A DNA stretch of 63,348 nucleotides, counting the filler, from Octopus bimaculoides (lineage: Eukaryota): assembly GCF_001194135.2 (NCBI RefSeq). It is 5 parts of 5 records of this genome, joined end to end, with 100 filler letters (N's around TTAATTAATTAA, not from the genome) between each part and the next. Parts side by side here need not be neighbours in the genome. Positions count along the whole stretch, not along the records: positions 1 to 30,678 come from NC_068991.1; positions 30,779 to 56,374 come from NC_068982.1; 3 more parts are not named here. One strand, written 5' to 3'. Of the stretch, positions 11,899 through 54,513 are shown in pieces (position 1 is the first letter of the stretch; each line of letters opens with the position of its first letter). The position numbers and the translations under genes are program-made. Under the pieces are notes generated by a model. That model saw only the letters and a list, made by a program, of their open reading frames with translations. It had not been told where the DNA came from and did not search any database.

Positions 11899-12010
11899 TG
11901 ACCTGACGATTAGCTATAATTTTGAATAGAATTGATTTTCGATCGATTTAATCGATTTGAATATATTTTATTTTCTATTTGAAGACTTGGTTATGAAACA
12001 CGTGTAGTCG
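11899..12010 (+). ncRNA. Type-I hammerhead ribozyme motif, core intact, long stem II
   Basis: TGAC | CTGACGA | T-TAGC..long hairpin..GTTA-T | GAAA | CACGTG | TA | GTCG. Stem I TGAC/GTCG, palindromic stem III ACACGTGT, GUA cleavage triplet. Confidence 0.75.
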
Positions 12011-12141
12011 CTTTATTATCATTATTTTATGGTTTTTACTTTGTATTATATTTATTTATTGTGCATTTACTTATTAATTTTTCTATATGTGACTGTGGAT
12101 TTTCATGGATGAGTTCATGAACTTTGGTTCTTTTCTCTAAA

Positions 12142-12145
<4 letters not shown>

Positions 12146-12198
<53 letters not shown>

Positions 12199-12580
12199 TA
12201 TAAATTCAAAAAAGGATAAAAATCTTTTACAAGAATTTTATCAGGAAGCCAGTGTGTAAAAATATATATATATATATATGTATATTTATATATATACATA
12301 TATATGTATATATATACATATATATGTATTATATACATATATATGTATATATGTATATATATACATATGTATATATATATACATATATATGTATATATAT
12401 ACATACGTATATATATACATATGTATATATATACATATATACATATACATATGTATATATATACATATATATATATACATATCTATATGTATATTTATAT
12501 ACATATATATATGTATATATATACATATATATATGTATATATATATATATTTATATATATATATGTATGTATATATATAT
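12146..12580. repeat. Degenerate (TA)n/(TATG)/(TACA) low-complexity tract
   Basis: Direct reading; gives the YIYI ORFs. Confidence 0.95.
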
Positions 12581-13989
12581 GCACAGAGGAACAAACATGC
12601 AGACACATTAAAACACTTAAAACACACCAGTTATTCCAGAAGATAACTATGTTATAAACGTAATCCACAAACCAGTTACTTTCCGATCCAGTGGTATTCG
12701 GAGCAGCATTTTTTCTCTAAAGTGAAATGGTTGCTGTCTTAAAGAACATGATTTGAGAGTGTTTGAAGTATATATTTTTATTTGTGTGTGCCTGACTATG
12801 TGTATAATAGGTTTCATCAAAATTAACACGTGTGATATTTGTGCATGATATTTCGCTTCAGTCTATATTTCTAACGATGTCTCGTTAGGAACAGCATTGG
12901 GAAAACAATGATCATATCTTCAGCACGCTACCAGTCCTATGAATGGAGTTCCTGTTGTTTTCTCAGTTACCCGCTCCACCAGTAATTTGAGCTCTTGTTT
13001 GTGGTAATTGTTTTAGAAATTAACCGTGGAGAAGTTTTAATCTCGAAGTTATTTCGATTTTTCTCTATTTGCATGTATCTAAATATTTTTGCTTTCCTGT
13101 TTTATGGTATGCATCTTTTTTGCAATTTGTCATATTTTTGCAGTTGCTTGTAATAATATGTCTCTTATTTTTTTAATTTTTAGAATTGTATAGCGCAACT
13201 GTAAAAGCAATACAGACCATTTCTTGTTCTACAAGAACACATTTTCCATTATCTTCTACAGCATTTTTTTAATTTTTATGGTAGAGTCTGAATCTTTAAA
13301 TATTTTTCTTTGTCTTTTGTGTGCGTGACTCTTTTCTTTTAAAGTTTATATATCTCTTGCTGCTTCCGGTTTATCATAGTCAAGCTGTATCTTCCTACGG
13401 AGACTGTTAAGCTATTCACTGCCGCCATCGTTTAGAGTTATGATCACTATTTCAGATCGTCATAGTTTTTGTTTTGGGTTTGGATGTTTTTTTTTTCCTT
13501 GTTTTTGTTTGTTTTTTTAGACATATTCCTTTCAGCTTAACTCTTTAATTTTTATATATTTTATTTGTTTGCTTTCATTGGTCCCCCGATATTTACACAC
13601 TTTTACTGTCCATGAATTGTTTATAACATGGTTGATTTCTTTGTCATTGTTTACTGTCTTAGTCATCTTGTCTCAATTGAAGAGGCGTGGCGCACGTGTC
13701 CCTTTAAACTCCATATTGATATCGAGGCTATAAACTTATACAGTTTGTAAAAACTTTTCCAACAGAAAATTTTGGTTTGATGTCATCCACATAAAGCAAA
13801 TAGTAGAACTTGTTCTTATCAAACTTACAATAACATCCTGTAAGATTTAGTGTCATATTTAATGGAGTAAAATACAAACATATAAAAGTGATGTGAGTGA
13901 ATCTACCAAGAATTTTGTGAGAGTGGATCTCTCTGTTTTAGGTCTTTTTTAAGAGCTACCAAGGAGATGGGTCATATATTTTTTCTTCT

Positions 13990-14330
13990 CTAAAAACACA
14001 GAGGACTTCCTTATACCCTCAGAGCAATGGATGAAAGCATCTCTAGCCAAAACATGGAGCGAAATCTCTTCCGTCGGTACAAGTAGGGCTTATGGGAGAG
14101 TATTCTTGATTTTCGAAACTAACGATGAGGCAAAAAAAAAAACAGTCCGTGACATACACTTGCGAATGGGTTTCGATCAGAATATATGGCACAACACAAC
14201 ACAGGGATCACAGTGAAGGACATTAGTGGTGAAGCTGACGTTTGGCTTGTCGTCACGTTTATGGTACAGTGTGGGCAGATGGTGAACACTGAGGTGACTA
14301 CAAATGACATGTAGGTGGGAGGCTCTCTCG
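13990..14330 (+). pseudogene. Decayed L1/Tx1-like LINE ORF1 (RRM-like) fragment
   Basis: Frameshifted ...TWSEISSVGTSRAYGRVFLIFETNDEAKK.../SEYMAQHNTGITVKDISGEADVWLVV resembles LINE ORF1 RRM segments (pattern recall only). Confidence 0.4.
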
Positions 14331-14749
14331 GAACATCCAAGTTTTGATGACACCCTTCCTCAATTAGTTCACAACACCATTGATGGGGTTGTGTTCCATT
14401 TTAAGTGTGGAAAGATAAGTAATGAGACGACCAAATTTCACACAAGGCATGAATCAATAACAGGTTATATTAGAAGACACTTACCTAAGGTGATATGCAG
14501 CAAGGCCGAAACAACTACAGGATTAATAAGCCAACTTTTTAATCATCTAGCCATGAATTTGAGTTTAGCCATATGAGCTATCTCTATTTGTTACTATCAA
14601 CACCAAAGTCTCTGCAGACGTCTCAACCGTCACCACTACCATAAGCATTATATATTTGTTTCTTAGTTTATTTGAGTTACTTCCCTTAGCACTATATGAA
14701 ACGTAGGCAGGAACGTACTGCTGTATCAATATATTGTCGTTGCTGTTAA

Positions 14750-14965
14750 GATGACAAACGAAATGGTCAAAGCATTGAACAAAATCATTTGCGGTATTGG
14801 TTCCAGCTCTTTACGCGTTCTAAGAGTTCAAATCCGGATGTGACCGATTTGTCTGTCATTCTTCTGAAATCAATAACATAAAATACCAGTAAAACACTAG
14901 GATCAATCTGATCGCCTTACCCCTCCCTAGCAAATTTCTACTTCTGTGTCGATGTTAGAAATAAT
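14750..14965 (+). mobile_element. Old SINE-A copy
   Basis: gagttcaaatcc B-box, aaataccag block, ccctccc..aaattt 3' region. Confidence 0.7.
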
Positions 14966-16150: not shown

Positions 16151-16185
<35 letters not shown>

Positions 16186-20103: not shown

Positions 20104-20770
20104 CGTAGATACAAGGCCAGAAATTTGTAGAAAAGAGTTAGTTGATAATATCAATCTCAATTGTATTTTCTAATGATTTCCAGAGGATAAAAGAGATAGA
20201 TGATCTCAACATGATTTAAACTCCGAACTAAATACCGCAAAGCGTTTTGTCCAATGCTCTAACAATTCTGCCAACACACCGCCTTAAATAATTTTTTTAC
20301 AGTGATATAGGACCAAAAATTTAGAGGAAAATGAATAGCCCTCTATACTGACCCCAGAAGGATGAAAAGAGAAGATGACTTCAGCGGGAGGTGAACTCAT
20401 GATGCAAAACGTGCAATTGAATAGCGCAAGGCATTTTGGTGCTTTATTTTATCGTCCCGAAGGAATGAAAATCTGACCTTGGTGAAATTTTAACTCATGG
20501 TGTACTCATGAAAGCTGAAACTGAATACCACCAGCCATTTTGGTCGATGTTCAAATGAATCTCTCAATTCACTGCCCAACGATCTCCAAACAAGGCTAGA
20601 AATATGATGAGGCAGAAACAGTCACTTCTACCGATTGGTATTTTATTTATCGACTCCGGAAGGATAAAAGGCTAAGCTGAGGTCGGATAGATTTGAACAC
20701 ACAACATACGGACACGGGGCAAATACGGGAAGGCATTTTGTCCGGAGCTGTAATGATTCTACCAATGTAG
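19600..20770 (-). mobile_element. Cluster of about five degenerate SINE-A copies
   Basis: Repeated tttatcga..ccgaaagga..aaagg, tttgaactc and ttctgcca..cgcc blocks. Confidence 0.7.
19867..20105 (+). mobile_element. Mariner-derived MITE (internally deleted)
   Basis: TA|CGAGGGGTAGCTGAAACGTTCCTGGTTTTG 5' TIR; transposase C-terminus NKCVNLRRNYIE* (cf. mariner WxKCVxxxGDYVE); 3' TIR caaagccatgaactttttagc..ttcg|TA split by (CA)n. Confidence 0.75.
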
Positions 20771-20975
20771 AACATCATGAGTTTTCAATATAAAATGCGG
20801 CGCCATATATTCAGAAGAAATCGGTAAATTTATGACGTCATTGTCGTTATAGTTGTTGTTGCTGTTGTCTTTGTTGTTTTAGACCACCACCACCCTCCCG
20901 ATTAGACCTAATTGACCACACCTATGATCAAGACATCTCCAGCCATCGCCATTTTGTCTTTTATTTTCAGACATT
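20750..20975 (+). repeat. ~220-bp inverted repeat, left arm
   Basis: gtaatgattctaccaatgtagaacatcatg...tttatgacgtcattgtcg...cagacattc is the reverse complement of ~24268-24493, with only scattered mismatches by eye. Confidence 0.9.
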
Positions 20976-21922
20976 CAGCATGTAACATCTGCGGTTACAT
21001 TATCCACCACTGTGTCTCCACCCCACTATACCACCATCAGCACTACCACCGCCTTTTATTTTAATGCGCTCAGGCGTGATTTCAGGGAAGTTTGCCTGTT
21101 TTTTGTAGCAGGTCAAGCGACAGCGTACACAGAGCTTCCTCGTTGGTTCATTGCCGACGAGACGAATGCATCAAGTGTATGGTGCATATCTTTAATAAAC
21201 GATTTGATAGCAAGAATGATTAAACAAGACAAAATGAAAGAAAAGTTATGACATCAAAATATTATAACCAAATGTCCTTCTGTGCAGTATTGTTTTCTTT
21301 TATTTGATTTCTTTTATTTGTTTTCTTTTATTTGTTTTCTCTTTTTTTCTGTGGAGATGTAGGATGTTTTGTAGTAGTGGCGTGGCTATTGTTGTTGTTG
21401 ACGTCATAAGAATTTTTATAAACTTTCGAGTGAATGTAAAATAATCCTTTTTTGAAGATAAGGGATCTCAAAGCTTACATGAAGCTATATATAATAGCAT
21501 GCAAATATTGGGTTGAAAAGCTCTTGGACAGCCTTCGGTTTTTTCTATCCAAAAGAATTTTTCAACCCAAAATTTACATGTTATTATTTAAAGAGTTATG
21601 TGTGCTTCGAGATCCAATATTTCAAAACAGAATTATTTCATTATTGCTGTAGTTCTTCTTCTTCTTCTTCTTCTTCGTGTTTTCATCGTCGTTGTGATCG
21701 TCCACGTAGTTGTAACATTATATTTATTTATGTATTTATTTATTTATTTTCACCTTTCAAGGAATTTCTAGGAATCCACTAGAGAAATGTATAATGCAAT
21801 TATGAGATAGCTACGATATTTCAGAGATTGAGAAATGTCAAATAGAGTAAAAAAAGTTAATGAAAATATTAGCTACGTATTTATAAAAACACACACACAC
21901 ACACACCTACACACACACTCAC

Positions 21923-23451: not shown

Positions 23452-23505
23452 TGGTTAGTTCTGATGAGGCAGGACCTCTGGTGAAAGGGACTCTAATTCT
23501 GACCA
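23452..23505 (+). ncRNA. Degenerate hammerhead motif
   Basis: TGGTTAG-TT | CTGATGA | GGCAG gacct CTGGT | GAAA | GGGAC | TC | TAATT-CTGACCA. Distal stem I TGGTTAG/CTGACCA pairs; proximal stem I is disrupted. Confidence 0.5.
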
Positions 23506-24267: not shown

Positions 24268-24493
24268 GAGAATGTCTGAAGATAAAAGACAAAATGGCGA
24301 TGACTAGAGATGTCTTGATCATAGGTGTGGTCAATTAGGTCTAACCGGGAGGGTGGTGGTGGTCTAAAACAACAAAGAGAACAGAAGCAACAACTGTAAC
24401 GACAATGACGTCATAAATTTATCGATTTCTTCTGAATATATGGCGTCGCATTTTATATTGATAACCATGATGTTCTACATTGGTAGAATCATT
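24268..24493 (-). repeat. ~220-bp inverted repeat, right arm
   Basis: See 20750-20975. Confidence 0.9.
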
Positions 24494-24762
24494 ACTCTTG
24501 TTGAGAAGGGTCGTTCTTGGGCACTTCCACCATAGAGTTCTGTCAGAAGCAATCATCGTTAGACTCTCTGGCCGGATTCCCACGCATGACCGACTAAGAC
24601 TATGGATATTACCCAACCGTCTCTTGCCAGTTGGCTTCGCTTGAAAAACCCGTCATGTGATTGTTTCCTCTTTATGGATGGGTTTTGAGATAAAAAAAAC
24701 AAGGACTTGATTTAAAACATTGGCATCTATACAAAGCATATATTACATATAAAATATGATTA

Positions 24763-30778: not shown

Positions 30779-30797
30779 TATATATATACTTATATAT

Positions 30798-30842
30798 ATA
30801 AATCTGAAGAATCTACTAGAGTAGATGCAAGTGCTAATATAT
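30798..30842 (+). ncRNA. Minimal hammerhead motif with one core substitution
   Basis: ATAAAT | CTGAAGA | ATCTACT-ag-AGTAGAT | GCAA (GAAA expected) | GTGC | TA | ATATAT. Confidence 0.55.
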
Positions 30843-30987
30843 GACTTATAAAAACATGACATATTAATAAAAATCTGTAAATGTACAACCATTCAGATCC
30901 CTGAGTACCTTATTTTTTCTAATATATAATACCTGTACATACCTTGCAAACCTTCTAATATATATATTTATATATATGTATATATTA

Positions 30988-32769: not shown

Positions 32770-32888
32770 CAAATAGACAAATAAACTAGCAAGAATTATT
32801 GGATAATCCCATATCTAGATTTCTGGCTTTGCATAAAAATATACTCTGCCTTATCAATGCGATATACAGAGATAGTACATAATTAATT
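32770..32888 (-). repeat. Hammerhead-bearing ~120-bp unit, left inverted copy (core mutated)
   Basis: Minus reads TATCGCA TTGATAA GGCAGAGTATATTTTTATGCAAAGCCA GAAA TCTAGA TA TGGGAT; reverse complement of 33187-33305. Confidence 0.75.
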
Positions 32889-33209: not shown

Positions 33210-33267
33210 ATACCACTGATGAGGCAGAGCATATTGTTATGCAAAGCAAGAAATCTTGATCTGGGAT
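33210..33267 (+). ncRNA. Hammerhead motif in right inverted copy (unit 33187-33305)
   Basis: ATACCA | CTGATGA | GGCAGAGCATA ttgt TATGCAAAGCAA | GAAA | TCTTGA | TC | TGGGAT. Stem I pairs 5 of 6; AUC triplet; base of stem II imperfect in this copy. Confidence 0.6.
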
Positions 33268-34924: not shown

Positions 34925-35085
34925 ATACGACGAGCTTCTATCAGTTTCCGGTTACCAAATACATAGTTTTGGTCGGTCCGACGACGGTATAGCAGAAAAA
35001 CTTGTCCAAGATACAACGGTGTGGGACTGAACCCGAAACCATTTGGTTGGGTAGAAACTTCTTAGCACCGAGCCACTTATGCACC
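34925..35085 (-). mobile_element. SINE-B 5' half (left of divergent pair)
   Basis: gtgggactgaacccgaaaccatttggttggg...gagccacttatgcacc. Confidence 0.8.
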
Positions 35086-35089
35086 TATA

Positions 35090-35250
35090 TGCAAGTGTGG
35101 TTGTGTGGTAAAAAGCTTTCTTGCCTACCACAAGGTTCTGCGTTCAGTCTCACTGCGTGGTACCTTGGACAAGTTTCTTCTGCTATAGCTTCGGGCCGAT
35201 CAAAGCCATATGAGTAGATCTCGTAGACGGAAACTGGAAGAAGCCCGTCG
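35090..35250 (+). mobile_element. SINE-B 5' half (right of divergent pair)
   Basis: gcaagtgtggttgtgtggtaaaaagc...gcgttcagtctcactgcgtggtaccttggacaag...gaagcccgtcg(ta)n. Confidence 0.85.
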
Positions 35251-36814: not shown

Positions 36815-37027
36815 CTTTTCTACTCCAGGCACAAGTTCCGTAATTTTGGGGAGGGGCCTGTCGATTAGATCAGCACCAGTACGTAATTGGTACTTAATTT
36901 ATCGACCCCGAAAGGAAAAAAAAGGCGAAGGCAACCGAGGTGGAATTTGAACTCAGAACGTAAAGACAGCCGAAATACTGATAAACATTTCGCTCGGAGT
37001 ACTAACGATTCTGCCATCTCGCCACCT
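36815..37027 (-). mobile_element. SINE-A full length (left of divergent pair)
   Basis: cttttctactccaggcacaag...gaatttgaactcagaacg...ctgccatctcgccacc. Confidence 0.88.
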
Positions 37028-37067
37028 TACTATTGCACTTACTATTAAAACAAGGAGCTTTAATATA

Positions 37068-37275
37068 GCAAGGAGTAGGCAGGATTGTTAGCATGCCGGG
37101 CAAAACACTTAGTGGCATTTCGTGTGTTTACGTCCTGAGTTCAAACTCTACCGAGATCGACTTTCCTTTCCATCCTGTTGGGTCGATACAATAAGAGCCA
37201 GGTGAACACTGGGGTTAATTTAATCTACTGGCTCCCTCCCACAAAATCTTGACCTTGTGAAAAATGTTTGAAGCC
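37068..37275 (+). mobile_element. SINE-A full length (right of divergent pair)
   Basis: gcaggattgttagcatgccggg...ctgagttcaaac...ctttcctttccatcc...ccctccc..aaaatc..ccttgtg. Confidence 0.85.
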
Positions 37276-38044
37276 TATGTTACACTATATCATAAGCAGT
37301 AAAAATGTAAAGAATATAAAATGACCAAAATATTTATCATGCGTTTTATGCCTAATAAATAATATATGTGAATAAATAGAAAAATATAATTATAATGATA
37401 TTTTATTTAGTACAAATATCCTATATAGTAATAACGATAACAAGAAGGCACTTTGAAATGGGTGTCTTTCTTAAGGATATTAGTATTGGAGGTCATTGCT
37501 TTCCACATGCATTAAATCCAAGTTGCGATACATTTTACCATAAGTTAAGAAAAACTATTATTTCTAAAACAATTATTACCTTCTTTCTTACTTCATTTTA
37601 CTTATATTAGAATCATTGTGTTCAAAACAAAAGAAAAATATCGATGCGAGAATGTCTAATAATGAAACTTTCTATTGGAAATGGTAGTGTTCGGCAAAAA
37701 CATAAATTGGGGTAGTGGACTGCGCAATAACACTAATTGCCAACGTTAATTTCCCGGCAATAATCTAATCGGGAAGCTCTAGAAAAATATCCAGCTATTA
37801 CAATTCGGTTTCTCTTCTATGAATGGAGATTTGCATGTATAACAACTATGACTGGAGATTTGCATGTACAACAACTATGACTGCATGTCTTTTCATTTGT
37901 TGAGTTAGCATGATATTGTGAAGGGGTTATCTCATAAAACAATGATGCATTAAATAATTTGACACAATGCAATATCTGCGTATAACACTACATATTCGTT
38001 CTTCACTCGTGTATTACTATTGTTACTCTAAGTCATGTCCATTA

Positions 38045-38088
38045 TCCAGAAATATTTCGCCACACATCTATGACCTCTTCAGCGACAC
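38045..38088 (-). ncRNA. Minimal hammerhead motif, core intact, weak stem I
   Basis: Minus: GTGTCG | CTGAAGA | G GTCATA gatg TGTGGC | GAAA | TATT | TC | TGGA; palindromic GAAATATTTC. Confidence 0.6.
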
Positions 38089-38168
38089 TTTCTGTCTTTA
38101 TGTGTGCTCTTGCTCTGCTTATTTCATTCCATTCTGATAGAATGGTATAAGCGGAGCAACAACAGGGA

Positions 38169-38213
38169 GTTTCATTGAAGAGGTCACAGATGTGTGAGGA
38201 AAGATTTCTGGAC
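38169..38213 (+). ncRNA. Sister hammerhead motif with C3>U change
   Basis: GTTTCA | TTGAAGA | G GTCACA gatg TGTGAG | GAAA | GATT | TC | TGGAC. Confidence 0.5.
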
Positions 38214-38572
38214 AAAGACATGAGTTAGAATAAGACAAGAATAAACAGGTGAAGGGCATATATATAGTGCGTATGTTTATTTGATAAAAACAAAATGACC
38301 ATCCCCAAAGAAGTAAAGCTTTACGCGAAACGTAAAACAACCTTTCTTTCCTTCCGTAAGAGTCTGCTAATACTTTAAATATACCATGTCCTCGCGTTGT
38401 TGTCTGTTTGTGTTTGTTCTTCGTTCTTTTGGATTTACTATGTATGTATATATATATATATATATATATTCAAGGCTTGAATATGGTACCCGAATAAGGC
38501 ACCCGAATATCACATCCTAAAAGGATGGGTGATTAAAATCAAACAATAAGCAACACGGATTTCAAAAGTGAT

Positions 38573-38661
38573 TGCAGTACGCACGTTTCATGCTACTTCA
38601 ATTTATTTAAGTTATGTGAGCATTACCTTAAATGCAATATGAAGAGCAATCTTCAGCTGCA
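38573..38661 (-). ncRNA. Type-I hammerhead ribozyme motif, apparently complete
   Basis: Minus: TGCAG | CTGAAGA | T-TGCT-CTTCA...TGAAG-T-AGCA-T | GAAA | CGTGCG | TA | CTGCA. Perfect 5-bp stem I, long stem II, self-complementary stem III ACGTGCGT, GUA triplet (predicted cut 3' of the minus-strand A at 38578). Confidence 0.8.
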
Positions 38662-39958
38662 CGAAAAAATGCAGAAAAAAGACATATTACNNNNNNNNNN
38701 NNNNNNNNNNNNNNNNNNNNNNNNNNNNNNNNNNNNNNNNNNNNNNNNNNNNNNNNNNNNNNNNNNNNNNNNNNNNNNNNNNNNNNNNNNNNNNNNNNNN
38801 NNNNNNNNNNNNNNNNNNNNNNNNNNNNNNNNNNNNNNNNNNNNNNNNNNNNNNNNNNNNNNNNNNNNNNNNNNNATATATATCATAATTTAAATTTGAG
38901 TTAGTATTTATGGTAATACTAATTATAGGCATTGCAATATTATCAATAATTTTTTTTTTTTATGAAGAGTAAGAACTGAGTTAAAGTATGTATTACGGCA
39001 TGTATTTTGTTTAGCGTGCACCAGGAAGTTCACTAGGAGTCGTTTGAATATTCCCATCATATAACAATCAGACCTTAATACATTGAACTTACGTAGTCTT
39101 ACCAAATGGAAAGGTTATCTTTCGATGAAGAAGTCTAATGTAATCGAAACATTTCATTAGTTTTCCTGTATTTTCTAAAATATTGATTGAACTGAATACA
39201 ATGCAGTTATCTGTTGTGGCTTCTCAACGTTTTTGATCTTAAATATCCCGAAAACGAAAATATGTCTACTAATTGCATTTATAATCTCAGTTAATTGAAG
39301 TTTATACAATATTTTAGATATATGCAAATCTGTACCGTATTTATTTCATAAAGTTTTCATCTGAATTCTCTCGCAGAGAATATGCACCGACAATCACTAA
39401 GCTCAAGTGTTTTGATAATTATTTGATAGTCAGCAGTATCCCCCTAAGAAATACGAATTAACGAGTCAACAAGATAAATAGTAAATGAATATTATATATC
39501 GTTACGTGTAGTCACTTCACACAATGTGTGGAGTTGTAGTGGCCTTTATTGTGTAGAATGAAATGCAAACACTGCAAGGAAAAAAATCAATCAAATGGAA
39601 TGTATTTAATAAATGAGAAGGTGAAGAATCATCTGTTGAAAGTTGCATGGACAAAGCTTGTGTAGTATCAACAGCAACTGATAGAATTCTTGAGAGGAGT
39701 CTCGAGCACTAAGGCATCAAAACGAACAAGTGTGTTCAAAGCAATACCTGAGTAGTCAGAGAACCGCAAGAACTAACCAATCTGCCAAAAATACAAACAA
39801 CTGCAAAATAGAAAACATGATGAACAGTCACTTTTGAACGGAGTATAAGAGGGACAGAGTATGCAAAATGTTTAATAAGATACGGATAGATATGCAAACA
39901 GCTTCTTAGTAGTTCGCTGAGAGGACCTTAATAAACAAGCCCAAAATATCGGGTTTTA

Positions 39959-41947
39959 CAGTCATTTTCGAACGTTTGTCATTCAATTTGATAATCTGGT
40001 TATTCAAAGTCGCGAAAAATATTAGCGCCATGAAGATACTCATTCAAATTCGTTTTTCGATCATTAAATTTTGCACTTCGGTCAAAGAATTTAGCGTTTA
40101 CATCATTCAAATTAAAATGACCGTTGAGAGCATTCCAATTAGTCGGAATGCGTGCAAGCGTCTTTTCGAGGATTTAAATTAGTTTCCGAGCAATTTATTT
40201 AACACTTTGAGCAATCAAATTAGCACAATAGCTGTTTTCGTTTTATCTCATGACCACTGCTATCATAAACACGTGATTTCATCCATTGTTTATGCTTTAA
40301 ACACTCTGTCGTGCCCATGTCTTGTCTATGTATTCTGTTATTTTTGCATAGGTACATGTATTTATTGTTAATGACTTCATGAAATCGCATTCCAGCCTTT
40401 TCAATCTTTTTGAAGAAACTCCCAATTCCAGCAGATGTTCCTTTGCTCTGGTTTTAAATATATTATGTTGTGAAATGTTTCCTTCCTTTGCATATGCCTT
40501 GTTGGGAAAAGTATCTATTTCTCTGATTTTGTATTTTCCTTTCATCGGGGAAAGAGTATTATGAATACTAAGATAATTATTGATTTACAGGATAAGGATA
40601 GTTCCTTTGAGAGGATTTAGCCGTCCATTTCCCGATGGTCAAGGTATCTCCAGAGGTAGGTCTGTGTGTGTCTATACCAAGAGGCACAATTTTCTGGAGT
40701 GATAGCGTCGATGTTATGGCTTGCGATCTGCTGTATGATATGTGTTCGCCATTATTCCGTGGTCATGCCGGTTTCTTCTGCAGCTCCCGGTCGCCAACCC
40801 TTTGCTACAACTCAGCTCCAGCGAGATCCCGCTTGACAGCCGAATTAAAAGCAGAAAAGAATTGAGAAACGGCGAGTAGAGAGGCAGGAGTTGACACTGA
40901 TCCGTGGGTCGGCGTCAGCTTGGAGCTACGCACGAACGTGTGGCCGCGCGTTGTCGTAGATCAAGTAAACGGATTCATTCGTTGAGAACATCTCGGCACA
41001 TGTCCCTCGAAAGAGTTTCATGTAACGGCAAATGAAGTTGCAGTTTTCCCCACGCTGACGGTTGACAACTCGGCCAACATGTACGCCTCGGAGGGGTGGT
41101 GGTGGGTGGGGGTCTCGACCAAAAGACCGCCTGATCCAAATGTTGTACCTACACTAACCAATGAATATGCACTGGCCGACAGGACCCCTTCCATGAACCA
41201 ATGCGTGTACTCATAATCTTTTTCCATAGTTCTTGGGGCATTTCTTGCATCTGGGACGTCTTCGGCCAACTTCATATTTATCAACATCTTATCTAGATTG
41301 GGGACAAGGAAGCAGGTGGCAGATTGCGAGTGAGTTGGCATCACTAATTACCTGAAGCCTTAAAGTGGCGAGCACCTCCTCTGGGCAACGTGTGGCGCCG
41401 TAAGTAGGTCACTACTATGGATCGGGTAGTACTCCTTTTAATGACAAGTGTTTCTGCCAGTTGCAGGTAATCGATTTGGTGCCCATCGAAAGTGTTTCCA
41501 GCCTTGTCCTACGGTTAAGAATGTTGCAATTAAAAAGACTTCCGTGGACAGAAGACTCGCATAATTCGTTTCTTCCTTGTAGCTAAAACAACGTAATAAA
41601 AGTTGCATGACAAAATAGGTCATTTAAATTTGTCATTTTTAGCAGTAACTGCTTAGAAAGTGAATGAAAATACACGTGTAAAATTAATGCTAAATTGAAT
41701 ATACTTTTTCCGAATGCTCATGTGCGAATCTGAATGCTAGAAAAGACGCTTTCTCGCATTCCGATTAATTTGAATGCTCTCGACGGCCATTTTAATTTGA
41801 ATGATGCAAGTGCTAAATTTTTTGACCGAAATGCGAAATTGAATGATCGAGAAACGAATTTGAATGAGTAACGTCATGGCGCTAACATTTTTCGCGACTT
41901 TGAATGACCCGATTATCAAATTGAATGCAAATCGTCGAAAATGACAG
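39959..41947 (-). mobile_element. IS630/Tc1-mariner DNA transposon with ~220-bp TIRs, defective
   Basis: TA|CAGTCATTTTCG left end; TIRs ~39959-40180 and ~41725-41947 are reverse complements; right end reads ATGACAG|CG (TA not preserved). Confidence 0.9.
40610..41520 (-). pseudogene. DDE transposase pseudogene (Tc1/IS630-like)
   Basis: HTH DYLQLAETLVIKRSTTRSIVVTY..RGGARHFK; first-D block decayed to CIFIG*CRYNIWIRRSFGR (cf. IFIDESGFNIWTRRSFGR); VYLIYDNARPHVRA; LPLYSPFL (third-acid block deleted); C-term AITPENCASWYRHTQTY. Contains stops, frameshifts and deletions. Confidence 0.88.
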
Positions 41948-44399: not shown

Positions 44400-45769
44400 C
44401 TTAGTGAAGTTTTTGTCAGCATAAATCTACGAATGGGAACTATTCTCAATACATGAATCTAGTGTGTCTACAACTTAAAAGAAACTGAAGTTTCTAGAAT
44501 CGTAAATCTATGTTTCTCTGTCATGTGACGATTCTTGAAGCTTTAAGTTCTATTCGAATCTATAGACATACGTCTTCCTGTGAGTATAATGCTAATGATA
44601 TTGCTGCCTTGCATCTAAATTTATGTGGATGTGTCTGTTTATAAATAGAATGTCATCATTTTCGCTCAAATGAATATCGAGGATTCTCAAACATTTATAG
44701 ATAATATCTGGCGTGAGTGTTTAATATTTCTAATAAAATGAAATCTACATTCATATAAATGGAATTGTGGAAAGAATTAAAATTTACTTTTATTGAATTA
44801 TGTTTTATTGATGTAGTAATATCGGTTGAGAAAACAAATCAATATTTGAAGTGAAACAGAGAAGAAATAATATTTGTAAGTCAAAATACTCTAATAAAAG
44901 ATTGAGTAATGCGAAGGAGAGAAAACCTAGCGAAAACAATAGCATCGAGATTTTATTTCACTTATTTGCAGAAAAGTTAAGACAGGGGAAATCGTAAGAC
45001 TTAATTGCTTTCAGTAATATTCCATCATATTTCAGCAACTGTGATAATACCTTTCAATTGATCAAGTTATAACTTGTGCTCTAACAATTACGTATTCCAA
45101 TACGCATATACATTCATAGACACACATACTGCATACATACGTATATATATATATATATATNNNNNNNNNNNNNNNNNNNNNNNNNNNNNNNNNNNNNNNN
45201 NNNNNNNNNNNNNNNNNNNNNNNNNNNNNNNNNNNNNNNNNNNNNNNNNNNNNNNNNNNNNNNNNNNNNNNNNNNNNNNNNNNNNNNNNNNNNNNNNNNN
45301 NNNNNNNNNNNNNNNNNNNNNNNNNNNNNNNNNNNNNNNNNNNNNNNNNNNNNNNNNNNNNNNNNNNNNNNNNNNNNNNNNNNNNNNNNNNNNNNNNNNN
45401 NNNNNNNNNNNNNNNNNNNNNNNNNNNNNNNNNNNNNNNNNNNNNNNNNNNNNNNNNNNNNNNNNNNNNNNNNNNNNNNNNNNNNNNNNNNNNNNNNNNN
45501 NNNNNNNNNNNNNNNNNNNNNNNNNNNNNNNNNNNNNNNNNNNNTATATATATATATATATATATATTCTTTTATTACATCTCCTTGATTACATTATTTA
45601 CATTATTTACATTTGACGGACATGTGTCCTCATCTTGTTTGTTGTTAACACAATGTTTCGGCTGTTAGATCCTCCAGCATTTATGAAGTGTGTTGGGGAA
45701 ATTTCGAACCTGGGTTCTCATTCCTAATGTATTTTTTCGATGTTATTATTAGTTGTGTTGATCCTAAAG

Positions 45770-46790
45770 CCAAATTCTCAAAGTATTCCATGTATATATT
45801 GGTTATTATCGGTGATAATGGTGAACCCATAGCTAAACCCTCGTACTATCGATATATTTCAGTGTCCATACTTAAATAGGTAGTTTCTACACAGAAGGTC
45901 AACATTTCCATCAAGTTACTTTTAGATGGGTGTCTGTCACTAGTTGTTCTTGAATCACCGATAGTGCTTCACCAGTTGGGGCTTTGCTGAACAGACTTAT
46001 CTCATCTAGACTCACCATCTGGTTGGATTCAATGGGGGTATCCTTGATCAATTCTGTGAAATGGGTGGAATTCTTTACGCTCGATGCTGATTTTCCTGGT
46101 AATAGACTGATTATATCTACAAGAAAGCGGCTCAGTGGATGACATACTGGACCAATACAGCTCATTATAGGTCTTAATAGAATACCGTCCTTGTGAATCT
46201 TAGGGAGACCGTACATGTGTGGTAGTTTACTGTTGTGTTGAGTCAGATGTCTGTACTTCATTGGTGTAAAGTGATCCTTGTTCTAGATTTGTGACAACTT
46301 GCTCTCTGTTTTCAGAGTTGGGTCTTTCTTTTCTTTGCTGTAGTTACCATCACTTATAAGACTGGCCAACTTTTCCTACTAATCAGACTTGTTCATCACC
46401 ACTGTAGCATTTCCCTTGTCCCACGGAAGTACTGCGATGGAATTGTCACTCTGTAGTCTTATGATAGCGAACATTTCTTCCTTAGTGAAGTTTCGCTTTT
46501 TCCAGTTCCTGTCTCACTCTCGACCTTAGTTCATCTCCTTGAGTTTTTGGTATCTCTACGGCTATCTCTTCAATAGGGGCTATGATGTCCAAGTACGGAA
46601 TGCGCTTGATGGCTGTCGCAAAGTTGAGACTTTTGTTTAGTACTGCTTCTTCAGAGCTTTCTAGATGTCGGCTACTTACATTAATTACTGCTTTCACAGG
46701 TGGTAACGAACTTCAGTCTTCATTCTCTGACCTTTGAGTTTCATAAACTTCTTAATCTGGCGTGTCTTCAGCATTTCAAATTCTTCCAAA
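45770..46790 (-). pseudogene. PLE reverse transcriptase 5' half
   Basis: VLPWDKGNATVVMNKSD; LPHMYGLPKIHKDGILLRPIMS; VKNSTHF..MVSLDEISLFSKAP; EGLAMGSPLSPIITNIYMEYFE; then deleted. Confidence 0.9.
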
Positions 46791-47077
46791 TAAGGGTAGA
46801 GGAATATCGCAAAGCTGTGACACAAGGAGATATTGATAAATCGGGTATAGCTGATCATGAATGGAAAAATGGAGACCACCTCCCCCTGTGGGATGAAGTT
46901 AAAATAATAGACACAGAACACCACTGGAAAATACGAAAACTAAAAGAAGCAGCACATATGCTAGGACACATCAACTTCCTAAGCAGTCCGAGTGCAGATA
47001 TGAGCAGCATATGGGAACCGGTATTAAGTAAGGATAGAGAAATATTAGATTTAAAAGACCTAACATTCACGCCATAA
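46790..47077 (+). pseudogene. PLE GIY-YIG endonuclease C-terminal part
   Basis: IRVEEYRKAVTQGDIDKSGIADHEWKNGDHLPLWDEVKIIDTEHHWKIRKLKEAAHM fits the PLE pattern RxxEH..SxIAxH..H..W..vxIl..E..R..EA. Confidence 0.85.
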
Positions 47078-47085
47078 TTGCCCAC

Positions 47086-47156
47086 GGGTATATGGCATAG
47101 TGGTTAAGAGCGGGGGCTACTAGCCTCAAGATTCCGTGTTCGATTCCAGGCATTGA

Positions 47157-47160
<4 letters not shown>
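47086..47160 (+). promoter_or_regulatory. tRNA-like Pol III promoter module inside the PLE terminal repeat
   Basis: A-box TGGCATAGTGG (47093-47103) and B-box GTTCGATTCC (47138-47147), followed by (AAT)n(AAC)n; same module at 48791-48865. Confidence 0.75.
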
Positions 47161-47195: not shown

Positions 47196-47234
47196 CAACA
47201 ACAACATCGAAAAACAAGGTTCGAAATTTCCCCA

Positions 47235-47281
47235 GACACCTGATAAATGTTTGAGGGGTATATCAGCAGAAACGTTGTGTT
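47235..47281 (+). ncRNA. Decayed minimal hammerhead in PLE terminal repeat
   Basis: GACAC | CTGATAA | ..CAGCA | GAAA | CG | TT | GTGTT; sister copies at 45647-45693 (-) and 48968-49003 (+) are also mutated. Confidence 0.55.
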
Positions 47282-47369: not shown

Positions 47370-47425
<56 letters not shown>

Positions 47426-48364: not shown

Positions 48365-48540
48365 CTTATAGGTCCGTCGTTGTCGACGATGACCAGGGAC
48401 ATCACATGCGAGAAGAAGACGGGGTACAGATGTGGCTAATCAGTACGATGAGTGTAGGGAAGGCTCTGCAACAGGTCGGGTACTAGTGGTTTGTTGGGGC
48501 TGAAGGCAAGAAGTTGACTCTGGACTTGCGTAGTTCGCAA
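48365..48540 (-). pseudogene. RTE (BovB-like) LINE 3' end
   Basis: ELRKSRVNFLPSAPTNH*YPTCCRAFPTLIVLISH (C-terminal zinc finger CPxCxRxFxxxIGLISH) and 3' UTR ggtcatcgtcgacaacgacggac. Confidence 0.75.
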
Positions 48541-49065
48541 GAAGATATTGATAAATCGGGTATAGCTGACCACGTATTGCAAAATGGAGACCAGCTCCCC
48601 CTGTGGGATGAGGATAACATAATAGACATAGAATGTCACTGGAAAATATGAAAACTAAAAGAAGCAGCACATATGCTAGGACATCACAACCTCCTAAGCA
48701 GTTCGAGTGCAGATATGAGCAGCATATGGGAATCGGTATTAAGGAAGGATAGGAACATATTAGATTTATGAGCCCTAAAATTCACACCACGGGCATATGG
48801 CGTAGTGGTTAAGAGCGCCTGCTACTAACCCCAAGATTCCGAGTTCGTTTCCAAGCAGTTACATGAACAATAATAATAATAATGATAATAATAACAACTA
48901 CAACAACAACAACAAAAACAACGAAAGATACCTTAGGAATGGGAACCCAGTTGTGAAATTTCTTAAAAACACCTGAAACGTATATCAGCCGAAAGGTTGT
49001 GTTAACAACAAATGAGTACAAATATCCGTCGAATGTAGATAATGTAAATAATGTACATAATTCCT
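48541..49065 (+). mobile_element. Second copy of the PLE 3' module (EN tail + tRNA-like + HHR terminus)
   Basis: Colinear with 46825-47335 (gatattgataaatcgggtatagctga...aaagaagcagcacatatgctaggaca...). Confidence 0.9.
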
Positions 49066-49084
49066 GGTCTCTTAAATATAGAAC

Positions 49085-50034: not shown

Positions 50035-50076
<42 letters not shown>

Positions 50077-51865
50077 CATGTGTGTATTCCTACATATGTA
50101 GGTATCTATGTATATGCCATAGGTAATGATGCGGATATATTCCTACATATGATGTGGATGATGATAATGACGATGTCCAAATTTTGTCATTTTACGACCT
50201 ACTCTTAGACAACAACACTAGATCTTTATGATCACCCAAACAAGAGAATGCAGGCTATTGAATGACCGTAGAAACGCCATTGTGGTCGTCTGTGCTACAC
50301 ATACAATATACTTAAGCGAGGAAACTACAGCATTGACAGCTTTTTTTTCTGATAATCTAACAACCATTACAATAGTAATTGTGTTAGAAATGACATTTGC
50401 CTATTTATTGTTTCAAGAAATAGCTGTGAGGAAATGGATTATAGGAAAGGAAATTGTCGAGTTGCCTACATTCACTTTGCGTGAAAATTATCTGAGTCAA
50501 CCTGATAAAGAATATTCTACAGATTTTACATCCGAGACACATGATCTGACAAGAACTAGAGAGCCATCATTCCCAAGGTGGAATTGCATCGCACCCATTC
50601 GCTATCTAGACTATTTACATGTCTGCGCTTCATAACTAAATATCCGATATCCTATATTGGTTTTATCCATCCTTGTATAAAGTTCTTGGTTTGTTTTTAT
50701 AGATGACAAATTAACACACCCAAGAGGCTAAGGAAGTTTATTAAGAACAATCCTCGCCTATTAATGAGGTGTCAACTTCGCCTCTGACAAACTGACAAAC
50801 GTATATATTTACACACACACAGACACACACACGCGTACACAAACAGGCAAATGCACATACACATACATATACACATGCTCATATGTTTTGTATAAAAGTA
50901 TATACATGTCAGTTTACATACACACACACATATAGTCTTGAGTGAAACGTTTTGCAATGTTCTTATTTGCTTTATTTGTCAAGTTACAACGAAAGCGGCT
51001 TTGCATTCATAGTAGAGACCATCTTGTTGCACCGTCTGAAGCCACCTTTCCACCAGTCGTTTGAGAAGCTTTGGGGAAGGAATTATAGTTTCATATACCA
51101 AAATGTTTTAAATATCAATGACATCGACTTGTTTCCAGAAAATTGACCATTTTCTGTTAGTTACCTGAACGCATAAGTACTGTCCGAGCCTGACGTATCC
51201 CCTCAGGTTTCCTCTTTTTAAAAAGTTGGTGTCTTTCTCGCAGGGAATGTGGACTATAGTACCTTCTGTGTAATAGCAGTGTGTTGTTTTTCAATTTCGA
51301 GTGCTTTACTAAATAAATGTTTCAATGTCAATAAGTAGAAATATATGATATTGAAACTACCTCGTATATCCTGGACGAGAATGATAACTTCGCGATTATT
51401 ATTCCACTGGATGATGAAGAAGACGTTTCTACACTAATGGTAATGTTTCTAAGTATTTTCTCACTAATAACAGCTATCTCTTATTTGACAGGGTATATTA
51501 ACCTACGTTTATGTTTGCAAATGCAATTCTTTTACTTCGCTTTTATTGTCACAAACCTGTTGCGTTACTTTAGTGTATCTAACCTATGAGCTACGAAGCT
51601 TTCAACCAGTTGATCAAAATATTCATTAACGGGAGATTTGATGCACTCATATTTGGAGTACTGGTTCTCACCAAAATGTTTTTACACGTCAGGGAACGGA
51701 TGAGACAGATAGGGCCAAATCGGGACAATAAGATGGGTGATTAAAAATTGCAAATCCTCAGTAACGCACAGCTATCATTGATACCATTTCAGCCCACCCT
51801 GGAAAGTATGTCTGTATCTCTTTCTCTACCTTTCTTTCTCTTTCTCTACTTCTCTCTCTCACTAG

Positions 51866-51915
<50 letters not shown>

Positions 51916-52379
51916 TATATATAAGCATATGTATAAATAACTATACAAATATATATACACATACATACACATACAAATATCCATATAAAAATGTGTGTGC
52001 ATGTGTGTGTGTGCGTGCGTGTGCGTGTGTATGCGTTTGGGTGTTGTCTGGGGTTAATTATAAAATGCTACCTCTTGATATTTTAAATTTAAGTAAATGT
52101 TAATATCATTAATTTTTCCATTCTCACTTTTTGTGAAGATTATTTTAACATAATGAAATCGACTTTGACTATATTTGCTTGATATAGAGATCGAAGACCA
52201 ACAGTAAGGAGATAACGTTGCATGCAATTATACGCATCTATTAATTTCTCAGTACCCATGTATGTTTGTAAATCAGGGAAGAAAATATGGGAAGATCTGA
52301 CAGTTGTTGAATATATTCCATAAACGACACCTTTGTTTACTCTTTAGCATTATAGAGAGAAAGAAACATACGGATGAGA

Positions 52380-52600
52380 TGTGAAGAGCTAACATGGAAT
52401 ATTAAGTGACAGATATGGTTTACTGGCCATACGCTTCGATTACTACCGGAGAGGCATTCTACCATAGCAATGTAGTGGAGACCAGAAGAAACAAAAAAGA
52501 CTAAGAAAATACTAAGGAAGATGTAACACAGTAACATTCTGGACGACATCATAACGATAAGCCTTAGCCCGTGTGGAGCTTAGAGAAAGGCGAGATATCG
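52380..52600 (+). pseudogene. RTE-like LINE 3' coding remnant
   Basis: FTGHTLRLLPERHSTIAM*WRPE (cf. FAGHILRLPxxRxAKxAMxWxP). Confidence 0.55.
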
Positions 52601-52671
52601 TGGTGTTTAAGGTAGATTCGTTGCCCGTTGCGTTTTGACAGCGCTGCAAGATCTAATATGTAAGATATGTA

Positions 52672-52704
<33 letters not shown>

Positions 52705-52855
52705 TCATGTATACACACACACACACATATATATATTCAAAACGTGACAAATAAGAATGAAGCACCATACACGCACAAAGTTCAATTCCATAAGATCTTT
52801 TTTTCCGACGAGTGGTTTGCAGATACTAATTAAAATTCTTAAGTCCTGTCAAGTA

Positions 52856-52905
<50 letters not shown>

Positions 52906-52906
52906 C

Positions 52907-52947
<41 letters not shown>

Positions 52948-53585
52948 NNNNNNNNNNNNNNNNNNNNNNNNNNNNNNNNNNNNNNNNNNNNNNNNNNNNN
53001 NNNNNNNNNNNNNNNNNNNNNNNNNNNNNNNNNNNNNNNNNNNNNNNNNNNNNNNNNNNNNNNNNNNNNNNNNNNNNNNNNNNNNNNNNNNNNNNNNNNN
53101 NNNNNNNNNNNNNNNNNNNNNNNNNNNNNNNNNNNNNNNNNNNNNNNNNNNNNNNNNNNNNNNNNNNNNNNNNNNNNNNNNNNNNNNNNNNNNNNNNNNN
53201 NNNNNNNNNNNNNNNNNNNNNNNNNNNNNNNNNNNNNNNNNNNNNNNNNNNNNNNNNNNNNNNNNNNNNNNNNNNNNNNNNNNNNNNNNNNNNNNNNNNN
53301 NNNNNNNNNNNNNNNNNNNNNNNNNNNNNNNNNNNNNNNNNNNNNNNNNNNNNNNNNNNNNNNNNNNNNNNNNNNNNNNNNNNNNNNNNNNNNNNNNNNN
53401 NNNNNNNNNNNNNNNNNNNNNNNNNNNNNNNNNNNNNNNNNNNNNNNNNNNNNNNNNNNNNNNNNNNNNNNNNNNNNNNNNNNNNNNNNNNNNNNNNNNN
53501 NNNNNNNNNNNNNNNNNNNNNNNNNNNNNNNNNNNNNNNNNNNNNNNNNNNNNNNNNNNNNNNNNNNNNNNNNNNNNNNNNNNNN

Positions 53586-53622
<37 letters not shown>

Positions 53623-53879
53623 GAAACGATTAATTCGGAAGACGCACGTAACTAGACGCATGCATCAGCGCAACAATTGTTTCGTCTTCATACTTCACTT
53701 CTCACTGTTAGGCCTTGAAAGATGTAACAACACTGGATGCAACACATAGTACAAAAGAGCCCCCTCGAGTGACATAAAATGCTCAACGGGTTTCAAAACT
53801 TACATTTTGCTGCAATCTATATGACTGTGGTAGATAATCTAGCATATCAGGTCCATTTGTTATATATACGTATGTGTAT

Positions 53880-54269
53880 GAGTGTACCCGCTATTTCCAC
53901 AACAGTGGCGCCAACACCAATAGACACCTCTGGCAACACGCGACCACGCAGATACATCGGCTGTAGCGAGATCTCGTTCAAACAACGCCTCTCCAATCAG
54001 AGATCTTAATTTAGGTACCAGAAAGAAGATTCGTCATGTCATTAGCCAGCCATGTATGGCGGCTAATACATAATGGGTTTGCATACACAATATTGAGAAT
54101 CCTAGAAAATCCTGAACCCTATATTAACGGGACAAACCACTGTAAATTGTGCATAGCGAAACGGGTGAGGATCCTAAAGCACACCATCAACCTAGAAAAT
54201 ATCCTGAACATCAGAGCGGAGGTTTTCGGACTGTGCTTGCATTTCAGGAAATACCAGCTAGTCTATTGA
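53880..54269 (+). pseudogene. PLE GIY-YIG endonuclease of a second family (Cys-rich tail; Naiad/Neptune-like, clade uncertain)
   Basis: RYIGCSEISFKQRLSNQRS*..SLASHVWRL..PYINGTNHCKLCIAKRVRIL..LNIRAEVFGLCLHFRKYQL. Confidence 0.85.
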
Positions 54270-54452
54270 AGCACACAAGATAGCAATGCCACTGGCGATT
54301 GATAGCCAAAAAGACACAACCCTTATTGTTGACATCGGTGATTGATAGCCAAGAGGAAACAATCATCTCTGTTGACATTGAGTAAATAGCTCATTTCCTT
54401 CTCCATATTCTAGAGAGGGCACTCGCTGGAAAGGCTTTTAGACAACAGCTTT

Positions 54453-54513
54453 GTGATCTGATGATACGCCATAAAGCCGAGCCCTTTATTGACGTGTAAC
54501 CTATGGTAATCTC
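54453..54513 (+). ncRNA. Hammerhead motif in that PLE's 3' terminal region, one core substitution
   Basis: GTGAT | CTGATGA | T ACGCCATAAAG ccgagcc CTTTATTGACGT | GTAA (GAAA expected) | CCTATGG | TA | ATCTC. Confidence 0.55.

What the first reader, a model, noticed from the sequence alone, without database searches (positions are those of the whole stretch)
11899..54513. About a dozen type-I hammerhead ribozyme motifs from several unrelated repeat families in one window
A by-eye scan for CTGAnGA...GAAA with flanking stems found sites at 11899(+), 23452(+), 30798(+), 32805(-), 33210(+), 38045(-), 38169(+), 38573(-), 45647(-), 47235(+), 48968(+) and 54453(+). Their stem sequences differ between families but the topology is shared: short stem I, (near-)palindromic stem III (ACACGTGT, ACGTGCGT, ATCTAGAT, AAATATTT, AACGTT) and an NUH triplet. 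Established: Penelope-like element termini and non-autonomous retrozymes carry minimal type-I HHRs that cleave as dimers through palindromic stem III. Inference: this genome has been colonised by many PLE/retrozyme lineages, most of them in this window without any coding partner, so cephalopod introns and intergenic transcripts may be peppered with self-cleaving sites.
Basis: partly seen in the sequence, partly recalled or inferred. Interest (0 to 1): 0.85.

Follow-up and report, generated by a model that had tools for sequence, protein, structure and literature searches.

The report
Decayed Penelope hammerhead ribozymes in octopus
This stretch of octopus DNA carries about a dozen mostly broken copies of a small RNA motif (hammerhead ribozyme) that are likely the leftover ends of Penelope-like jumping genes, a kind already described in many animals, and most of these copies are predicted not to cut RNA.

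Summary
The motifs are real but mostly relics. Eleven of 12 sites show hammerhead anatomy; 23461 is doubtful. A descriptor scan finds 15 good hits versus 4.4 in shuffles and 5.4 with decoy cores. Only 5 of 12 keep both CUGANGA and GAAA, and only 2 (11903+, 38656-) also keep all three stems. The 12 fall into about 8 families. Three head-to-head pairs match the inverted, truncated layout of Penelope-like elements (PLEs). Three sites adjoin PLE RT/GIY-YIG remnants, and a fourth follows a probable GIY-YIG end. For three families, contigs of the same species show very high summed depth, and their letters restore bases broken in the window. No retrozyme-type tandem arrays were found. RNA reads come from other copies and show no end pile-ups. 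Cervera and De la Pena (2014) describe exactly this pattern: many families, solitary copies, opposite-strand pairs, weak dimer-only cleavage. This scan found the same kind in other genomes. My paper searches found no octopus account. "Peppered with self-cleaving sites" is unsupported. One extra detail: a tRNA-like promoter segment sits in one family's terminal repeat.

The parts
11899..12010 (+). Type I hammerhead, family 1: intact core (11903-11909, GAAA 11995-11998), 85-nt domain II with U.U at its base, helix III ACACGTGT, GUA triplet; solitary
   Evidence: (score 26)
23452..23505 (+). Doubtful site: exact core boxes but no stem I in register and weak stem II; aligns to the repeat at 20750-20976/24270-24495, which lacks the core boxes
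30797..30843 (+). Decayed hammerhead: CTGAAGA, perfect 6-bp stem II, GAAA mutated to GCAA, helix III AGTGCT; next to (TA)n and an assembly gap
   Evidence: (score 21)
32806..32863 (-). Family 4 copy: U3-A8 type core (TTGATAA), helix III ATCTAGAT; extra A between stem II and GAAA in both copies
33210..33267 (+). Family 4 copy, head-to-head with 32857-: intact core boxes, decayed stems
38044..38088 (-). Family 5 copy: intact core, wobble-decayed stems; other genomic copies restore Watson-Crick pairs
38169..38213 (+). Family 5 copy, head-to-head with 38082-: C3 and C11.1 lost here, both present in most other copies
38310..38339 (+).
   Evidence: variants 38323, 38325; loose ends before 38310 and 38317
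38573..38661 (-). Best site, family 6: intact core, 5-bp stem I, 60-nt domain II, helix III ACGTGCGT, GUA triplet; highest-depth repeat; ends near (TA)n
   Evidence: (score 29)
45648..45691 (-). Family 7 (PLE terminal repeat) hammerhead, core broken; in the inverted arm after an RT remnant
45750..46727 (-). Broken PLE reverse-transcriptase remnant (stops, frameshifts), 54-74% identity per segment to P0001/P0006
46784..47077 (+). C-terminal GIY-YIG end of the same PLE family, 5'-truncated
47086..47158 (+). tRNA-like segment with Pol III A and B boxes in the PLE 3' region, followed by (AAT)n
   Evidence: not called by ARAGORN or Rfam
47236..47280 (+). Family 7 hammerhead about 165 nt after the ORF stop; G8 lost
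   Evidence: E 0.003
48535..48753 (+). Second GIY-YIG end of the same PLE family
48791..48863 (+). Second copy of the tRNA-like segment
48969..49002 (+). Family 7 hammerhead with an internal deletion
53945..54272 (+). Probable broken GIY-YIG C-terminus of a different PLE clade (YIG, downstream Arg, CxxC), ending about 185 nt before the 54458 hammerhead; not statistically secured
   Evidence: negative in 64, 71, 72, 74, 89
54453..54513 (+). Decayed hammerhead, family 8: CTGATGA, long hairpin II, GAAA mutated to GTAA, 3-bp helix III, GUA triplet
   Evidence: (score 19)

Best explanation
The sites are real, mostly decayed type I hammerhead motifs from about eight repeat families, and they are likely the terminal-repeat (pLTR) ends of Penelope-like retroelements left by heavily 5'-truncated insertions. 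Shown: the motif anatomy, the three head-to-head pairs, the PLE coding remnants beside family 7, and that other copies of families 5, 6 and the 38310 family carry better cores and stems than the window copies. Inferred: reverse transcription starts at the element's 3' end and usually stops early, so most insertions keep only the hammerhead-bearing last 100-300 nt, often with an inverted second piece. Inferred from published work: in a tandem master element two hammerheads would pair through the self-complementary helix III and cut after the NUH triplet, processing the element's RNA. After insertion the copies would decay neutrally. Solitary or opposite-strand copies have no same-strand partner and are predicted to be inactive.
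For: Enrichment over shuffles and decoys. RT (45750-46727-) and GIY-YIG ends (46784-47077+, 48535-48753+) adjoin the three family-7 sites. The N-terminus of the intact PLE protein P0006 reads through the same motif family in frame: window 45620-45661(-) translates PKHCVNNKQDEDTC against P0006 PKRCVNNNNHDED. 13 of 35 related PLE loci with sequence past the ORF end carry a same-strand hammerhead, nearest copy 77-234 nt after it; several carry inverted upstream copies. A model built only from 13 of those motifs ranks 47232-47284 first in the window (E 0.003). All 3 inverted pairs are head-to-head, as in PMC8557442. In one search summed contig depth is 52-95 in unique flanks and 7.8e4-1.2e6 over the motifs; 8 of the 12 listed variants inside the motifs restore a core base or a Watson-Crick pair and none breaks an intact core base. 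PMC4209133 reports many families per genome, mostly single copies, and opposite-strand pairs 100-700 bp apart.
Against: For 8 of 12 sites no coding remnant was seen within 700 nt upstream (some flanks are gaps), so their PLE origin is by analogy. The GIY-YIG reading at 53945-54272 rests on one weak BLASTP match (E 0.01) and an Atlas lead (0.82); Pfam, PHROGs, my profiles and a pairwise BLASTP missed it. The PLE-derived model finds only 3 of 12 sites at E<=10. Domains II of 60-85 nt are much longer than the 7-8 bp helix II described in PMC4209133. 97 variant rows were not shown. Five of the 8 families have no genome-wide data here. The 13 of 35 loci are not independent (many come from two assemblies).
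Confidence: 0.82

Rival explanations
1. The highest-copy families (38656- and 38310+) are non-autonomous elements in their own right (retrozyme- or SINE-like), copied from short RNAs by PLE enzymes rather than left as truncations of full elements.
For: Very high summed depth over 100-190 nt pieces; no ORF upstream in the window; retrozymes are proposed to derive from PLE pLTRs and often occur as monomers (bioRxiv 10.64898/2026.07.22.740005); a tRNA-like promoter lies in the family-7 terminal region.
Against: No head-to-tail hammerhead array in the window. The family-5 pair is head-to-head. 38310+ is cut inside the core, as 5' truncation predicts. RNA depth over the motifs is a few hundred in about 1.9 Gb read, equal in both orientations, with 88-93% of reads running on into unlike sequence: this looks like passive read-through, though library selection is unknown.
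Confidence: 0.13
2. Some sites are chance look-alikes in AT-rich repeats. This is plausible for 23461+ and for my extra candidates 28982+, 43250+ and 56511-, not for the set.
For: About 4 hits at score>=14 are expected by chance. 23461+ has no stem I in register and its best other match in the window (of 1465 stretches) is a repeat copy without core boxes. Rfam finds nothing. Fold z-scores of the best sites are unremarkable (-1.2, -1.2, +0.3).
Against: Real counts exceed all 200 shuffles and all 60 decoys at score>=14; family data restore the motif; three sites lie where PLE hammerheads lie.
Confidence: 0.04
3. Intact copies cut host pre-mRNAs or intergenic transcripts in octopus cells, as monomers or by pairing with a second same-strand copy in one long transcript.
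For: 11903+ and 38656- have intact cores and 8-of-8 pairing in an intermolecular helix III (-10.3 and -8.8 kcal/mol); family 6 is very abundant and its sequence is present in RNA reads.
Against: The hammerhead fold is 4.1 and 5.4 kcal/mol above the minimum-energy monomer fold (no tertiary or dimer energy included). No place where many molecules begin or end in two RNA runs (6% of each run, weak test). This locus has almost no reads of its own (12 of 1233 and 9 of 1038 at >=99% identity; zero depth in unique flanks). PMC4209133 reports no monomer and low dimer cleavage.
Confidence: 0.07

Closest known systems
Minimal hammerheads (min-HHR) in pLTRs of metazoan Penelope-like elements (Cervera and De la Pena 2014, PMC4209133; parts 1-2 of 4 read)
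   Same: Type I topology, short helix I, extra base after A9, palindromic helix III, many families per genome, mostly solitary copies, opposite-strand pairs 100-700 bp apart, a U3-A8 core variant.
   Different: Octopus is not named in the parts read. Families 1 and 6 have 60-85-nt domains II with U.U at the base instead of G10.1-C11.1, and 8-nt self-complementary helices III. Most window copies are decayed.
EN+ PLEs with C-terminal GIY-YIG (Penelope/Poseidon and Neptune clades; PMC8557442, passages read)
   Same: RT then GIY-YIG, hammerhead near the 3' end, 5' truncation, adjacent inverted copy, microsatellite neighbours.
   Different: No intact element in the window; clade not assigned by a tree here. 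Family 7 carries a tRNA-like segment in its 3' region.
Non-LTR retrozymes (PMC7229834, passages read; bioRxiv 10.64898/2026.07.22.740005, part 1 of 5 and passages read)
   Same: Non-coding, type I hammerhead, high copy number, PLE-related; a U.U mismatch at the base of helix II is noted for an axolotl family.
   Different: Defined by head-to-tail arrays of about 300-bp units with canonical hammerheads and abundant circular RNA; no array here.
Schistosoma SINE-like hammerhead elements transcribed by Pol III (review PMC6765202, passages read)
   Same: A Pol III-type promoter upstream of a hammerhead, as in family 7.
   Different: Here the promoter-like segment lies inside a PLE 3' region right after the GIY-YIG ORF; independent mobility was not shown.

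Membership tests
PLE minimal hammerhead | CUGANGA and GAAA boxes with NUH triplet, type I order | tested here: met
   Exact in 5 of 12 window copies; restored in other copies for families 5 and 38310. Not met for 7 individual copies.
PLE minimal hammerhead | Short helix I and a helix II | tested here: met
   Present, often with mismatches, at 11 of 12 sites; absent in register at 23461+.
PLE minimal hammerhead | Extra base after A9 and G10.1-C11.1 pair | tested here: inconclusive
   Met for family 5 and the 38310 family. Families 1 and 6 have U.U at the base, 54458+ an extra U then A-U, 30804+ A-U, and family 4 an extra A before GAAA.
PLE minimal hammerhead | Self-complementary helix III region | tested here: met
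   8 of 8 pairs at 11903, 38656 and 32857; 6 of 6 at 30804; 4 of 4 at 47240; partial at 33216, 38082 and 54458.
PLE minimal hammerhead | Lies in the pLTR downstream of an RT/GIY-YIG ORF | tested here: inconclusive
   Met for 3 of 12 sites, probable for 54458+, not shown for 8.
PLE minimal hammerhead | Multi-copy family whose consensus keeps the structure | tested here: met
   Three families in 37890-38690; the other families were not tested, as no genome is held.
PLE minimal hammerhead | Self-cleavage as a dimer | not testable with these tools
   Needs in vitro transcription; RNA reads show no end pile-up, a weak test.
Non-LTR retrozyme | Head-to-tail tandem units each with a hammerhead | tested here: not met
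   No such array in TRF output (period up to 500) or self-BLAST.
Non-LTR retrozyme | Canonical type I hammerhead (Rfam-detectable, loop 1-loop 2 contacts) | tested here: not met
   0 Rfam hits at gathering score; none among 150 of 166 rows shown at E<=10.
Non-LTR retrozyme | Abundant small circular RNA | tested here: inconclusive
   One 'goes back' joint class seen only in DNA contigs among 15 rows shown (17 not shown); library selection unknown.

The most novel reading that the evidence does not exclude
Octopus carries tens of thousands of intact copies of a long-stem-II hammerhead family (38573-38661) whose 8-nt self-complementary helix III lets two same-strand copies in one long pre-mRNA, or a copy and a Pol III transcript from a tRNA-headed PLE terminal repeat, pair and cut host RNA: a repeat-encoded RNA-cleavage layer in cephalopod transcriptomes.
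Probability: 0.07. Interest if true: 0.7.

Novelty: new member of a known kind. Interest (0 to 1): 0.22.

Why it matters
As it stands it extends a known pattern to octopus and gives a dense, multi-family set (about one relic per 4-5 kb of non-gap sequence here) for studying PLE truncation and hammerhead variation, including long-stem-II families that Rfam misses. It would matter more if the abundant intact family cut host transcripts, or if the tRNA-headed terminal repeat moved as a Pol III element; neither is shown.

Tried and rejected
No whole genome is held, so genome-wide family alignments could not be made. Rfam scans gave nothing useful. The repeat finder was swamped by gaps and microsatellites. 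No RNA holder was listed as such; this is no evidence on expression. The 12923(-) CTGAAGA with a downstream ACACGTGT is not an inverted copy of 11903 (alignment score 80 vs 77.8+-7.6 shuffled). Ten other CTGANGA sites printed showed no hammerhead anatomy by eye. 43250+, 54369+, 50349+, 4650+, 33870-, 25604+, 5471- and 49370+ score 14-21 but lack family or positional support; about 4 such hits are expected by chance. The covariation count on 13 relatives' motifs (93.8% paired, 9 of 10 pairs with two-sided change) is circular, because my descriptor chose them for pairing; it is not used as evidence for the window. Searches for relatives of the 54051-54269 fragment in viral contigs and of 59338-59775 found none. 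Two relevant papers were not held (Arkhipova 2017; Lunse 2017); I saw only their titles in reference lists. Supplements of PMC4209133 were not read and may list molluscan or cephalopod motifs.
Full report
Setting. The 63-kb window is 31% GC, has 8,195 N and many microsatellites. A reverse-transcriptase fragment at 59760-60083 is 88% identical to an Octopus vulgaris protein, and a short piece is 96% identical to an O. bimaculoides protein, so the DNA is from an octopus. No whole genome is held.

Observation. All 12 coordinates mark hammerhead-like sequence. Five keep both core boxes (11903+, 23461+, 33216+, 38082-, 38656-). Two have a mutated GAAA (30804+, 54458+). Five have an altered first box (32857-, 38175+, 45687-, 47240+, 48973+); 32857- has the U3-A8 pattern that PMC4209133 reports as a natural covariant, while its sister copy has C3-G8. 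That G8, G12, A13, A14 and the 3-8 pair are needed for catalysis is established knowledge, recalled. Only 11903+ and 38656- have an intact core and all three stems. 23461+ has no stem I in register, and its best other match in the window is a repeat copy (24270-24495, also 20750-20976) lacking the core boxes (score 47.5 vs 24.2+-3.9 shuffled), so I count it as doubtful.

Chance. Rfam found nothing. I wrote a tolerant type I descriptor after seeing the sites. At score>=14 the window has 15 hits against 4.4+-2.2 in 200 local dinucleotide shuffles (max 13), 5 in the reversed sequence and 5.4 with 60 permuted cores on the real sequence (max 12); at >=18, 7 against 0.64 and 1.1. Five of the 12 sites are not in the 60 of 97 rows printed. 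The bare CTGANGA count is not enriched (22 vs 18.8); the exact-core descriptor is (5 vs 1.0). Alone, only 38656- and 11903+ beat the null clearly; the rest need family or positional evidence.

Families and layout. Self-comparison gives about 8 families: 11903; 23461; 30804; 32857/33216; 38082/38175; 38656; 45687/47240/48973; 54458. The three opposite-strand pairs all point away from each other. PMC8557442 (passages read) describes an inverted 5'-truncated copy next to the upstream pLTR as typical of PLEs. No head-to-tail array was found.

Coding partners. Searching the window with 180 PLE-related proteins and profiles built from 60, 20 and 102 of them shows an RT remnant at 45750-46727(-), GIY-YIG ends at 46784-47038(+) and 48535-48753(+), and an RT piece of another lineage at 59760-60086(+). 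The 47240+ motif lies about 165 nt after the ORF stop. The intact relative P0006 (847 aa; Pfam RVT_1) begins with a frame that runs through the same motif family. Of 79 related loci fetched, 35 extend at least 250 nt past the ORF end and 13 of these carry a same-strand hammerhead, the nearest 77-234 nt after it; L001 has three copies 2,791 nt apart; several loci have inverted upstream copies. A covariance model from 13 of these motifs ranks 47232-47284 first (E 0.003), and finds 48965 and 38082 weakly, but not the other 9 sites. Upstream of 54458+, two frames at 53945-54272 read like the second half of a GIY-YIG domain (YIG, a downstream Arg, CxxC; motif reading recalled). Support is one BLASTP match to P0155 (41% over 43 aa, E 0.01) and an Atlas lead (nearest named cluster GIY-YIG, 0.82); searches missed it. 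For the other 8 sites the 700 nt upstream showed no coding remnant.

Other copies. One DNA contig set, one probable RNA contig set and two raw RNA runs of the same species label were laid on 37890-38690 at 80% likeness. Summed contig depth is 52-95 in unique flanks but 7.8e4 and 2.4e5 over family 5, 1.7e5 over a repeat at 38310-38430, and 1.2e6 over family 6. The tool warns this is not a copy number; it suggests thousands to tens of thousands of copies. Forty variant rows are shown and 97 are not. Twelve fall inside the motifs. Eight restore a core base or a Watson-Crick pair: 38175 (C3), 38198 (C11.1), 38060, 38070, 38048, 38323, 38325 and 38613 (the last by my reading of the fold). None breaks an intact core base. 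38054 shows that the AAATATTT palindrome is private to this copy. In RNA, 1233 and 1038 reads were laid, only 12 and 9 at >=99% identity; unique flanks have no depth; both orientations are about equal; 88-93% of reads run on into unlike sequence; and no place shows many molecules beginning or ending. So other copies are read inside longer transcripts, this locus is nearly silent in these samples, and cleavage is neither shown nor excluded.

Folding. Helix III is fully self-complementary at 11903, 38656, 32857, 30804 and 47240. As monomers, the hammerhead fold lies 4.1-9.5 kcal/mol above the minimum in 8 of 8 sites modelled (secondary structure only). Fold z-scores are unremarkable.

Mechanism. 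Shown: anatomy, layout, coding remnants, family restoration. Inferred: 5'-truncated retrotransposition leaves hammerhead-bearing 3' ends, often with an inverted piece, which then decay. From the literature: in tandem master elements the motifs would dimerise through helix III and cut the element RNA. PMC4209133 (parts 1-2 of 4 read) found no monomer and low dimer cleavage; the review PMC6765202 (passages read) agrees. Opposite-strand pairs cannot form a dimer in one transcript.

Novelty. PMC4209133 already reports thousands of minimal hammerheads per genome in many families, mostly single and probably from truncated PLEs, with opposite-strand pairs 100-700 bp apart. Five searches combining hammerhead with octopus, cephalopod or SINE terms gave no octopus account; the giant squid genome paper lists 235 Rfam hammerhead-1 hits (PMC6962438, passages read). 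Supplements were not read. Earlier notes of this scan report the same kind in other genomes; none matched this genome or these sequences. Distinctive details are the long domains II with a basal U.U in two families, and a tRNA-like segment with A and B boxes inside the family-7 3' region in both copies that reach it (missed).

Verdict. A correct catch of a known kind in a new host; the functional extrapolation to host transcripts is unsupported. Interest 0.22.

Noticed in passing
window 47086-47158(+) and 48791-48863(+): tRNA-like segment with A box and B box followed by (AAT)n, between the GIY-YIG stop and the hammerhead in both family-7 copies, and nowhere else in the window. Either a SINE captured by the master PLE or a Pol III promoter in its terminal repeat.
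   Followed up: partly
window 38310-38430(+): A further very high-copy minimal-hammerhead family, truncated inside its core; four relics of three families lie within 650 nt.
   Followed up: yes
   Followed up: partly
window 56475-56518(-): Candidate with a U3-A8 type core and the same helix III, triplet and AT-rich stem I as 30804+; score within the null range.
   Followed up: partly
window 45687(-) and 47240(+): Both arms of the inverted family-7 insertion share A at core position 8 and the following bases, suggesting one template that was already a variant or defective.
   Followed up: no
window 45736-45750: The inverted arm jumps from mid-RT straight to the (AAT/AAC)n tract before the hammerhead, about 1 kb of element missing, with a short ACAAC-like microhomology by eye.
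   Followed up: no
window 58749-60086: RT piece of another PLE lineage (88% to an O. vulgaris protein) on +, abutting a possible RT-thumb remnant on - (59338-59775; resemblance recalled, searches negative). An annotated O. bimaculoides protein (P0030) starts with similar element-derived sequence.
   Followed up: partly
window 39961-40180 and 41727-41945: 220-bp inverted repeats, 88% identical, 1.5 kb apart; may be the ends of a DNA transposon.
   Followed up: no
window 11346-11689, 21439-21638, 34928-35250, 36939-37152: Long palindromic or fold-back segments of 200-340 bp without a hammerhead hit.
   Followed up: no
window 62127-63345: Degenerate 8-mer satellite (ACCGCTAA) mixed with telomere-like AACCCT repeats at the window end.
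   Followed up: no
L001:196, 2987, 5778: A PLE relative with three identical hammerheads 2,791 nt apart, a perfect tandem or an assembly loop of a circular form.
   Followed up: no
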